A stretch of 16,197 nucleotides of DNA from a virus: the UHGV virus genome UHGV-1963518. One strand, given 5' to 3'. Positions 10,959 through 11,718 of the stretch are shown in pieces; positions within the stretch are counted from its first letter, which is position 1, and every line of letters starts with the position of its first letter. A program made the position numbers and the translations under genes. Under the pieces are notes generated by a model. The model was not told the DNA's origin, ran no database searches, and worked only from the letters and a program-made list of their open reading frames with translations.

Positions 10959-11480
10959 ATGAGTAAAGCCGAATACGCCAAATACAAAGGCGTAAGCCGC
11001 CAGACAGTTTACGACTGGATCGAGAAAGGCGAAGTGATCATGTCTGGCAAAAAAATTGATGTGGAGGCGACAGAGCAGCGGAACAGCCCACCGGCACAAG
11101 GGAAAGACACCGTTTCTGAAATGTGGCCAGAAAGAACGCTGGAAATGACGTGGGGCGAGTTCTGGAAAGCAGTTAAGGCCAGAGACGGTAAAATTCCTTC
11201 GCCAGTAACGGACGATGACATACAGCAGCGTGTGCTGTATGCAGCCGGGGAATTAGGCTGGGAAGTGCACTTTCTTGATGATGGTGCTATCTGCCTTGAG
11301 GATGATGAAGGGCAGCATTACTTTGAAAAATACAATTTGCGAGGTAATGCCAGGCTGGCAATTCGTATGCTGCGTTGCGAACTCTGCTATGTTGCAGGTG
11401 ATTATCCCGATGAACTGGAATCATGGAGTGAAACCGGGCTAAACGCCCTGGCTGAATGGGAAAAATCAGACCATCAATGA
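10959..11480 (+). CDS. HTH DNA-binding protein, terminase-small-subunit-like N-terminus (candidate packaging-redirection or regulatory protein)
   Basis: ORF 10944-11480; ATG at 10959 follows GAGGTGAG. N-terminal KAEYAKYKGVSRQTVYDWIEKGEV is an HTH similar to TerS/Nu1-type or Xis-type motifs. Acidic C-terminus. A direct-repeat array follows immediately. Confidence 0.5.
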   Translation: MSKAEYAKYKGVSRQTVYDWIEKGEVIMSGKKIDVEATEQRNSPPAQGKDTVSEMWPERTLEMTWGEFWKAVKARDGKIPSPVTDDDIQQRVLYAAGELGWEVHFLDDGAICLEDDEGQHYFEKYNLRGNARLAIRMLRCELCYVAGDYPDELESWSETGLNALAEWEKSDHQ

Positions 11481-11484
11481 CATC

Positions 11485-11688
11485 AAAAAGTGTCAAGTTG
11501 AGCAGCTTGCCAGGTTGACACTTTACACTCTGAACGCGAAAAAGTGTCAACCTCGCTGTAAACCCCGCCGTTACTGGCTTTGCGCCAGATTTACCACGTC
11601 AAAAAACCGAAAAATCGCGAAAAGTGTCAAGTTGCCATGCTTAGAAATGCTAAGGTTTGATAAGGTTTTTCGCGAAAAAGTGTCAACC
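11485..11688. repeat. Array of four direct repeats AAAAGTGTCAA plus an inverted partner (putative protein-binding / packaging or operator site)
   Basis: AAAAAGTGTCAAGTTG at 11485-11500 with inverted TTGACAC at 11515-11521. GAAAAAGTGTCAACC at 11538-11552, CGCGAAAAGTGTCAAGTTG at 11616-11634, CGCGAAAAAGTGTCAACC at 11671-11688. Confidence 0.5.
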
Positions 11689-11718
11689 AGCCCCCTAAGA
11701 TTTCCTAAGGTGTAAACC

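What the first reader, a model, noticed from the sequence alone, without database searches (positions are those of the whole stretch)
10959..11718. TerS-like HTH protein followed by an AAAAGTGTCAA repeat array: possible packaging-redirection module and recognition site
Four direct copies of AAAAGTGTCAA, spaced about 54, 80 and 56 bp apart, plus an inverted TTGACAC partner, fill the 238-bp gap after a 174-aa protein whose N-terminus looks like a TerS/Nu1-type HTH. The arrangement resembles lambda cosB, where repeated R sites are bound by the small terminase. In Gram-negative PICIs a small protein (Rpp) redirects the helper TerS to the island's own cos. Alternatively this is an operator array for a late promoter.
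Basis: inference. Interest (0 to 1): 0.55.

Follow-up and report, generated by a model that had tools for sequence, protein, structure and literature searches.

The report
Satellite terminase-like protein and its address sites
A phage-parasitic island in E. coli encodes a protein whose DNA-binding head is copied from a phage small terminase, next to a conserved array of its likely binding sites; together they probably mark the island's DNA for packaging into a helper phage's capsids, by a protein family not described before.

Summary
There are four exact AAAAGTGTCAA copies and one inverted copy in the 238-bp gap (0.56 expected by chance).

The gene's first 40 residues are homologous to the DNA-binding domain of lambda Nu1-type small terminases. 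The remaining ~120 residues form a family-specific alpha/beta domain. The protein is not an Rpp.

Gene and motif array travel together across Enterobacterales. In a sister subfamily of satellites the same motif array sits exactly where lambda's cosB sits: after a lambda-type cosQ-23 nt-cosN shared with Citrobacter phage phiNP, and before the homologous gene. One of those satellites (L046) carries a full-length TerS with this DNA-binding head.

My best reading (about 0.5) is therefore a packaging address label and its reader, working like Rpp or a satellite TerS.

Two caveats:
- This island has no lambda-type cosQ/cosN, and its array lies downstream of the gene.
- The array's centre holds an 18-bp element that I also found in the middle of iteron arrays of genuine phage replication origins. 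An origin-type role is a live rival (about 0.2).

The island's P4-type origin is elsewhere, at 8287-8497. I rate the finding a new variant of a known kind.

The parts
10953..11480 (+). It has a Nu1-type winged-HTH head (aa 1-41), a disordered linker (aa 44-54) and a family-specific alpha/beta domain (aa 61-165).
   Evidence: ORF and translation. RefSeq start in the near-identical island. AlphaFold model, pLDDT 87.8. phrog_57 = Nu1 family. hhalign to phiNP TerS, 96.8%. The C-domain has only 19 representatives among 1.84 billion proteins.
11486..11496 (+). Site 1, AAAAGTGTCAA. It forms an inverted pair with site 2, separated by 18 bp.
   Evidence: The inverted first pair directly after the stop codon is conserved in Escherichia, Rouxiella, Raoultella, Buttiauxella, Pantoea and Serratia.
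11515..11525 (-). Site 2, TAAAGTGTCAA read on the minus strand (one mismatch). A weaker TTTACAC variant overlaps its end at 11522-11528.
11540..11550 (+). Site 3, AAAAGTGTCAA. Sites 1-2-3 are oriented + - +, like lambda R3-R2-R1.
   Evidence: The lambda orientation rule is from PMC9026076.
11556..11600 (.). Central conserved block between sites 3 and 4. It contains the 18-bp 'core' CCAGTAACGGCGGGGTTT on the minus strand at 11560-11577.
   Evidence: Conserved between E. coli, Klebsiella/Raoultella-type and Pantoea arrays. Single match in the window, 0.01 expected by chance. The same core lies inside iteron arrays of phage origins.
11620..11630 (+). Site 4, AAAAGTGTCAA, followed at 11638-11656 by GCTTAGAAATGCTAAGG.
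   Evidence: family D6. The accompanying element is conserved across genera.
11676..11686 (+). Site 5, AAAAGTGTCAA, followed at 11694-11711 by CTAAGATTTCCTAAGG. This is the last conserved unit before the variable cargo. A weak GTGTAAA lies at 11710-11716.
   Evidence: The junction to different downstream sequences falls just after this unit in relatives.
10414..10584 (+). Small ribbon-helix-helix-like ORF (MKGHGVKPVLLSRRQIEALQRIQDEE...). It co-occurs with the module in most loci, at a variable distance.
   Evidence: The RHH assignment is from reading the sequence only; it had no family hit.

Best explanation
The gene and the array form a packaging-recognition module of a phage satellite.

The protein reads the repeated GTGTCAA sites with a DNA-binding head inherited from a lambda Nu1-type small terminase. 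Several copies assemble on the roughly 200-bp array. This labels island DNA as a substrate for a helper phage's terminase. The family-specific C-terminal domain would make the contact to the helper's TerS or TerL. The array plays the part of cosB (or a pac recognition site), and the protein plays the part that Rpp, or a satellite-encoded TerS, plays in other islands.

Shown:
- homology of the head to TerS;
- strict co-occurrence of gene and array across genera;
- occupation of the cosB position by the same array in sister satellites, including one with a complete TerS.

Inferred:
- that the protein binds these sites;
- that it contacts a helper terminase;
- where the DNA of this particular island is cut, and by which helper.

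For: 2. Co-conservation. Of 12 loci found through the protein alone, 11 carry a cluster of GTGT(C/A)AA sites downstream of the gene. Seven of these lie within 30 bp of the stop codon, three are displaced by inserted cargo, and one follows a disrupted gene. Of 63 viral-collection contigs found through the inverted site pair alone, 52 have a family gene within 400 bp. The first 40 residues are nearly invariant while the rest of the protein diverges to 33% identity, and the site sequence is likewise invariant.

3. cosB position. In satellites L048, L064, L075 and L046 the array follows GGGTCCT-23 nt-acg|GGCATTGCGCGC|cgcg. This has the same layout and spacing as lambda cos in a CFT073 prophage and as phage phiNP just upstream of its terS-terL-W-portal genes. 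The phage has GGTAACA heptads where the satellites have TTGACA(C)/GTGTCAA.

4. Link to a real terminase. The L046 protein is a full-length TerS, 39% identical over 196 aa to phiNP TerS (E 6e-42). It carries the satellite-type head (43% identical to the window protein) and the same array.

5. Position in the island. The module is the last conserved block before the cargo and attR. This is the zone where PICI packaging functions lie (PMC10111431, PMC11773190).

6. The island's P4-type origin is elsewhere, at 8287-8497.
Against: - This island has no lambda-type cosQ/cosN and no P2 cos anywhere. No cleavage site is identified.
- The array lies downstream of the gene, not between a cos site and the gene.
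- The C-terminal domain resembles neither TerS nor Rpp.
- Neither the protein nor the array was found in 50,697 phage records. No helper is known.
- The centre of the array carries an element otherwise seen inside replication-origin iteron arrays.
- Binding of the protein to the repeats is inferred from co-occurrence only.
Confidence: 0.5

Rival explanations
1. The array is an origin-type nucleoprotein site. The protein would be an iteron-binding organiser, with its DNA-binding head borrowed from a terminase. It would act in island replication, for example as a second cis site like P4 crr, or as a site that recruits helper or host replication proteins. The central core would be the functional heart.
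For: The window's only copy of the core CCAGTAACGGCGGGGTTT (11560-11577) sits between sites 3 and 4. The same 13-18-bp element lies in or beside unrelated iteron sets in genuine origins:
- inside lambda-O-type genes, followed by P genes, in Yersinia phage vB_YenM_29.18 and in contigs L081 and L094;
- downstream of a primase-helicase in phage L079, which has a separate lambda-like cos;
- at the edge of the primase-origin iterons in the related satellite L034;
- in the AT-rich region upstream of the primase/helicase operon of phage Greed.
The layout of sites, core, sites mirrors those origins. Sister arrays that have a lambda cos lack the core.
Against: - The protein has no similarity to O-type initiators.
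- Its sequence matches are to TerS, Cox, excisionase and MerR-like regulator families, not to replication initiators.
- No AT-rich unwinding region adjoins the array; GC is 0.44-0.48.
- The island already has a P4-type origin with 7 TGTTCACC iterons next to its primase.
- The same head-and-site pair serves a full-length TerS at a cosB position in L046.
- Within E. coli relatives the core varies more than the GTGTCAA sites.
Confidence: 0.2
2. The protein is a transcription factor and the repeats are its operators. They would control genes downstream of the array (the late or cargo genes), or its own gene in the subfamily where the array is upstream.
For: - The fold class (MerR/Xis/Cox-like winged HTH) includes many regulators.
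- The site contains TTGACA on one strand.
- In the sister subfamily the array lies directly upstream of the gene.
- A 59-aa ORF with a Shine-Dalgarno sequence follows the array.
Against: - No sigma-70-like promoter is predicted within the array. Three sites were found in 2 kb, all outside it, and no more than in shuffles.
- The sequence downstream of the last repeat differs between close relatives. The 59-aa ORF is displaced or absent in some, and cargo is inserted on either side of the array. There is therefore no conserved regulated target.
- Copy number of the units varies.
- The closest sequence relatives are terminases.
Confidence: 0.12
3. The protein is an excisionase-type recombination directionality factor, or another architectural factor for site-specific recombination, and the repeats are its arm-type sites.
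Against: - The array is about 3 kb from attR (about 14715-14800) and 11 kb from attL and int.
- No GTGTCAA sites lie near either att site.
- The island has a separate AlpA gene in the usual position.
Confidence: 0.03

Closest known systems
Rpp proteins and the cos of EcCICFT073-type PICIs (Fillol-Salom 2019, PMC6739421; Feiss 2022, PMC9026076)
   Same: Both are satellite-encoded proteins with a Nu1-like winged-HTH head of altered specificity. Both lie next to a satellite-specific recognition site, at the packaging end of the island. In the sister subfamily the satellite keeps the helper's cosQ and cosN but has its own cosB, which is exactly the Rpp logic.
   Different: - There is no detectable sequence homology to RppC.
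- The protein is 173-175 aa with an alpha/beta C-domain, not 135-154 aa with a helical dimerisation domain.
- The recognition region has five or more repeated sites, whereas Rpp islands have a single R3-like site and no repeats.
- In this island there is no cosQ/cosN and the array is downstream of the gene.
Lambda Nu1 (TerS) with cosB (R3-I1-R2-R1)
   Same: The DNA-binding domain is homologous. Both have several sites in mixed orientation, + - + for the first three. Both have a conserved non-repeat element between sites, as I1 is in lambda.
   Different: - The protein lacks the Nu1 oligomerisation and gpA-binding regions; matches stop at about aa 45.
- No terL gene is adjacent.
- The central element does not fit the IHF consensus (my own reading of the sequence).
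- The site sequence is unrelated to lambda R sites.
Satellite-encoded small terminases (SaPI TerS; here the L046 protein)
   Same: A satellite supplies its own DNA-recognition subunit to the helper's large terminase. L046 does this with the same head and the same sites.
   Different: The window protein has replaced the whole terminase body with an unrelated domain. Any contact with TerL would therefore have to be made in a new way.
Iteron-type replication origins (lambda ori in gene O; P4 ori/crr)
   Same: Repeated protein-binding sites flank a shared central core. The array is a second cis-acting repeat cluster a few kb from the primase origin, as crr is in P4 (established knowledge).
   Different: There is no AT-rich region. 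The sites differ from the primase's TGTTCACC iterons. The adjacent protein is terminase-like, not initiator-like.

Membership tests
Lambda Nu1-type small terminase (phrog_57) | N-terminal winged-HTH DNA-binding domain homologous to Nu1 | tested here: met
Lambda Nu1-type small terminase (phrog_57) | Central oligomerisation region and C-terminal TerL-binding region | tested here: not met
   Profile and BLAST matches end at about aa 40-45. The C-domain is an unrelated alpha/beta fold. The relative in L046 does have these regions.
Lambda Nu1-type small terminase (phrog_57) | Gene follows cosQ-cosN-cosB and precedes terL | tested here: not met
   No cosQ/cosN in the window. No terminase large subunit among the window ORFs. 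The cos-array-gene layout is met in sister satellites.
Rpp (redirecting phage packaging) proteins | Sequence homology to RppA/B/C | tested here: not met
   phmmer and a family profile against all PDB chains, which include RppC (6HN7), gave no Rpp hit even at E 10.
Rpp (redirecting phage packaging) proteins | Winged HTH followed by a helical dimerisation domain (six helices in all) | tested here: not met
Rpp (redirecting phage packaging) proteins | Binds the helper TerS and redirects it to the island cos | not testable with these tools
   Needs two-hybrid or pull-down assays and transfer assays.
Iteron-type replication origin | Repeated sites next to an AT-rich unwinding region and a cognate initiator gene | tested here: not met
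   GC is 0.44-0.48 across the array. The adjacent protein is unrelated to O. The primase has its own iterons at 8287-8497.
Iteron-type replication origin | Presence of the conserved core seen in other phage origins (a feature defined here, not in the literature) | tested here: met
   Core at 11560-11577. The same element is found in origins of a Yersinia phage, Greed, L079, L081, L094 and L034.
Xis/Cox recombination directionality factors | Binding sites within the att arms | tested here: not met
   attL lies at about 1-90 and attR at about 14715-14800. The array is 3 kb from attR, and no motif lies near either att site.
Operator array of a sigma-70 promoter | Promoter hexamers overlapping or flanking the sites, with a conserved downstream gene | tested here: not met
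   No promoter-like site within 11480-11720. Downstream genes vary.

The most novel reading that the evidence does not exclude
One conserved pair, the terminase-derived reading head and the GTGTCAA address array, may be a portable module that satellites combine with interchangeable C-terminal adaptor domains. That would let them plug into different helper packaging machines. Three adaptor forms were seen here: a full TerS body, the sister-subfamily domain, and this island's alpha/beta domain.

In this island the address array has no cos. Instead it embeds a widespread, undescribed origin core. Packaging recognition might therefore be coupled to a replication-initiation or priming event rather than to cos cleavage. 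The core itself would be a previously unnoticed common element of phage and satellite origins.
Probability: 0.15. Interest if true: 0.8.

Novelty: new variant of a known kind. Interest (0 to 1): 0.62.

Why it matters
Many Gram-negative phage-inducible islands lack any recognisable packaging gene. They are scored as doubtful or defective. For one that was shown to transfer (EcCIMP1), the authors say the packaging mechanism is unknown (PMC11773190).

This module is present in 170 of 5,426 complete E. coli genomes and in related islands across Enterobacterales. It offers a concrete, testable candidate for how such islands get themselves packaged. It would be a third solution beside Rpp and satellite TerS.

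The graded series also shows how a terminase can be taken apart and its DNA-reading head reused: phage TerS, then satellite TerS with a new head, then the head fused to new domains. The conserved origin core found on the way may matter for phage replication in general.

Tried and rejected
- Lambda cosN and P2/P4 cos searches in the window found nothing above chance. Searches for cosQ GGGTCCT and local alignment of four lambda-type cos regions against the window did no better than shuffles.
- Array as the primase origin: rejected. The P4-type iterons TGTTCACC cluster at 8287-8497, next to the primase.
- Known RNA family in the array: none.
- Protein or array in phage records or plasmids: no match.
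- Defence-system models for the neighbouring ORFs: none.
- BFVD fold search: nothing significant. The AFDB library was unavailable.
- ColE1-type nic site (ACTGGCTT) as an oriT: considered from memory and dropped. The position after CTGG varies among relatives, there is no relaxase, and the module is absent from plasmids.
- The core as a cosN: dropped. In L079 a separate lambda-like cos exists, and in O genes the core lies inside the origin iterons.
- Ribbon-helix-helix ORF as the binder of the repeats: less likely. Its distance from the array is variable and it is absent from several loci, whereas the HTH gene is adjacent.
- Retrieving RppA from CFT073 by guessed coordinates hit a lambda-like prophage instead. 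That was useful only as a real lambda cos reference.
- The Pseudomonas phage matches to the core were low-complexity coding sequence, that is, chance.
- P0119, an 837-aa hit to the C-domain, is an unrelated repeat protein.
- Literature searches for the core sequence found nothing relevant.

Full report
**What the window is.**
The window begins in the 3' half of a tRNA (thrW-type). It continues with these genes:
- a P4-type integrase (220-1434);
- an int-alpA RNA and AlpA;
- an AntA-family gene;
- a D5/DUF5906 primase-helicase (6448-8262);
- a ProQ/FinO protein and a PerC-like protein;
- several small ORFs;
- the gene in question (10953/10959-11480) and the repeat array;
- a 59-aa ORF and a 532-aa low-GC ORF.

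A second copy of the attachment sequence lies at about 14715-14800, followed by a truncated second integrase. This is a roughly 14.7-kb integrative phage satellite of the Gram-negative PICI/P4-related kind. A segment 99.9% identical to the finding lies in an island at thrW in E. coli EC23-1020. 170 of 5,426 complete E. coli genomes carry the segment, always on the chromosome.

**The observation.**
- AAAAGTGTCAA occurs four times exactly on the + strand (11486, 11540, 11620, 11676) and once inverted with one mismatch (11515-11525).
- That is five matches where 0.56 are expected; none of 200 shuffles reaches five.
- The right half of the array is a tandem unit of about 55 bp: GTGTCAA, 8-9 nt, then CTTAGAAATGCTAAGG.
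- Relatives carry one or two extra units, which explains the length classes seen in E. coli.
- Across genera the site consensus is aAAAGTGTCAA(C/G)(C/T), with GTGTAAA as a variant.

**The protein.**
- AlphaFold (pLDDT 87.8) gives a winged HTH at aa 1-41, a disordered linker at 44-54, and a compact alpha/beta domain at 61-165.
- Sequence searches of the PDB, which holds RppC, find no Rpp or Nu1.
- All 38 aligned family members match phrog_57 (best 6.8e-12).
- The first 40 residues are almost invariant (V12 S13 R14 Q15 Y18 W20 and others), while the rest of the protein falls to 33% identity.
- The C-domain is confined to this family: 19 representatives among 1.84 billion proteins.

**Gene and array travel together.**
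- Loci fetched through the protein alone come from Escherichia ruysiae, Pantoea, Rouxiella, Serratia, Raoultella, Buttiauxella and Erwinia. Of these 12 loci, 11 have a cluster of the same sites downstream of the gene. Seven clusters lie within 30 bp of the stop codon. Three are pushed 1.5-3.7 kb away by inserted low-GC cargo. One follows a disrupted gene.
- Contigs fetched through the inverted site pair alone have a family gene within 400 bp in 52 of 63 cases.
- A small ribbon-helix-helix-like ORF also co-occurs, but at variable distance and not always.
- The sequence after the last repeat differs among close relatives, so the array marks the end of the conserved island core, next to a cargo hotspot.

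**The decisive comparison.**
A divergent subfamily has the array upstream of the gene. Examples are L048 and L068, with N-termini MSLMSVSQYAKHAGMSRQALYxW.
- There the array begins right after GGGTCCT, exactly 23 nt, then acg|GGCATTGCGCGC|cgcg.
- A real lambda cos in a CFT073 prophage reads GGGTCCT, 23 nt, acg|GGGCGGCGACCT|cgcg. The layout is the same, with a different 12-nt cohesive end.
- This cos stretch is 78% identical to Citrobacter phage phiNP, just upstream of its terS-terL-W-portal genes.
- phiNP TerS belongs to phrog_57 and is 42% identical to the window protein over the first 38 residues.
- Where the satellites have TTGACA(C)/GTGTCAA repeats, the phage has GGTAACA heptads: three before the start codon and at least five inside terS.
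- So these satellites keep the helper's cosQ and cosN but carry their own cosB and their own reader. This is the logic shown experimentally for Rpp islands (PMC6739421, PMC9026076).
- One satellite, L046, encodes a complete TerS. It is 39% identical over 196 aa to phiNP TerS (E 6e-42), including the C-terminal region. Its head is of the satellite type and it has the same array in the cosB position.
- The heads that go with GTGT(C/A)AA read SRQ..Y.W. The phage head that goes with GGTAACA reads SRK..T.W. This is a suggestive co-variation in the recognition helix, but it is inference.
- A profile comparison links the two satellite subfamilies at 98% probability.

**What does not fit neatly.**
- The window has no lambda-type cosQ/cosN and no P2 cos. 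Its array is downstream of the gene.
- Between sites 3 and 4 lies a block conserved from E. coli to Klebsiella/Raoultella-type and Pantoea arrays.
- The heart of that block is CCAGTAACGGCGGGGTTT on the minus strand at 11560-11577. It is unique in the window.
- An exact-pattern scan of the viral collection found the same element in the middle of quite different repeat sets:
  - inside lambda-O-type genes that are followed by P genes (L081, L094, and the isolated Yersinia phage vB_YenM_29.18), with an AT-rich stretch beside them;
  - just after a primase-helicase gene in a phage that has its own separate lambda-like cos and Nu1 gene (L079);
  - at the edge of the primase-origin iterons of a related satellite (L034);
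  - in the AT-rich region upstream of the primase/helicase operon of the virulent E. coli phage Greed.
- The sister arrays that have a lambda cos lack this core.
- I found no description of the element in the literature, and I cannot say what it does.
- From memory only, it resembles the start of the G4 primase primer. I list that as a lead, not a result.

**Weighing the explanations.**
- The terminase ancestry of the head, the cosB placement of the same sites in sister satellites, the full TerS in L046, and the position of the module at the packaging end of the island together make packaging recognition the most economical reading (about 0.5).
- The origin core keeps an origin-type role alive (about 0.2). 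Against that role: there is no AT-rich region; the protein has no similarity to O; and the island has a separate P4-type origin with seven TGTTCACC iterons at 8287-8497.
- A plain transcription-factor reading (about 0.12) lacks a promoter in the array and a conserved target gene.
- A recombination-directionality role is unlikely, because the array is 3 kb from attR.
- Direct binding, the helper phage, the partner of the C-domain and the cut site all remain untested.

**Comparison with what is known.**
- It works like Rpp with its island cos, or like a satellite TerS.
- It is not a member of the Rpp family: sequence and C-domain fold were both tested and not met.
- It is only a partial member of the Nu1 family: the head matches, the body does not.
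- Its recognition region differs from Rpp islands in having five or more repeated sites, where Rpp islands have a single R3-like site and no repeats.
- I therefore file it as a new variant of a known kind.

Noticed in passing
window 8287-8497: Seven exact copies of the P4 type-I iteron TGTTCACC, in both orientations, in an AT-rich stretch (GC about 35%) directly after the primase-helicase gene. This is a P4-like replication origin. Single extra copies lie at 7689 and 12150.
   Followed up: partly
window 11560-11577; L098 2490-2520; L101 1480-1560; L079 about 3229; L081; L094; L034 about 5365; L083; L084/L097: An undescribed 13-18-bp element, GCCAGTAACGGCG(GGGCTT), sits between or beside unrelated iteron sets. 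It occurs in origins of lambda-O/P-type phages, primase-helicase phages, the virulent E. coli phage Greed and related satellites. Its function is unknown, and it was not found in the literature by sequence.
   Followed up: partly
L077 3085-3345 (Citrobacter phage phiNP): The phage's likely cosB heptads (GGTAACA) continue inside the terS coding region, where they encode a GN(S/T)QGN repeat linker. The DNA site and the protein linker are therefore written in the same bases.
   Followed up: no
L048 3505-6519 and 8709-12720: This sister satellite lies next to a truncated lambda-type major capsid gene E and a head-tail attachment gene. That suggests a helper-embedded PICI. It carries an OLD-family ATPase-nuclease as cargo.
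   Followed up: partly
window 1-50, 1479-1546, 14715-14800, 14884-15222: The 3' half of a tRNA lies at the left end. An Rfam int-alpA RNA lies between int and the next ORF. An attR repeat is followed by a truncated second P4-type integrase, which looks like the remnant of a tandem island.
   Followed up: partly
L012 8642-12290; L006 8510-10125: Low-GC cargo is inserted between the gene and its array: in L012, genes of 332, 80 and 571 aa (the last ATPase-like); in L006, a 251-aa gene. Both sides of the array act as cargo hotspots.
   Followed up: no
protein P0065 (E. coli, 226 aa): An in-frame fusion of an AntA N-terminal domain to the last ~90 residues of this protein. It is most simply explained as an internal deletion of about 8 kb in a decaying island of this type.
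   Followed up: no
L068 10430-10780: A 116-aa satellite ORF whose C-terminal half matches phage tail-fibre assembly proteins (phrog_105, 1.4e-11).
   Followed up: no
window 9492-10306: The island encodes a ProQ/FinO-domain RNA chaperone and a PerC-family regulator side by side. The same pair is found in the EC23-1020 and E. ruysiae relatives.
   Followed up: no
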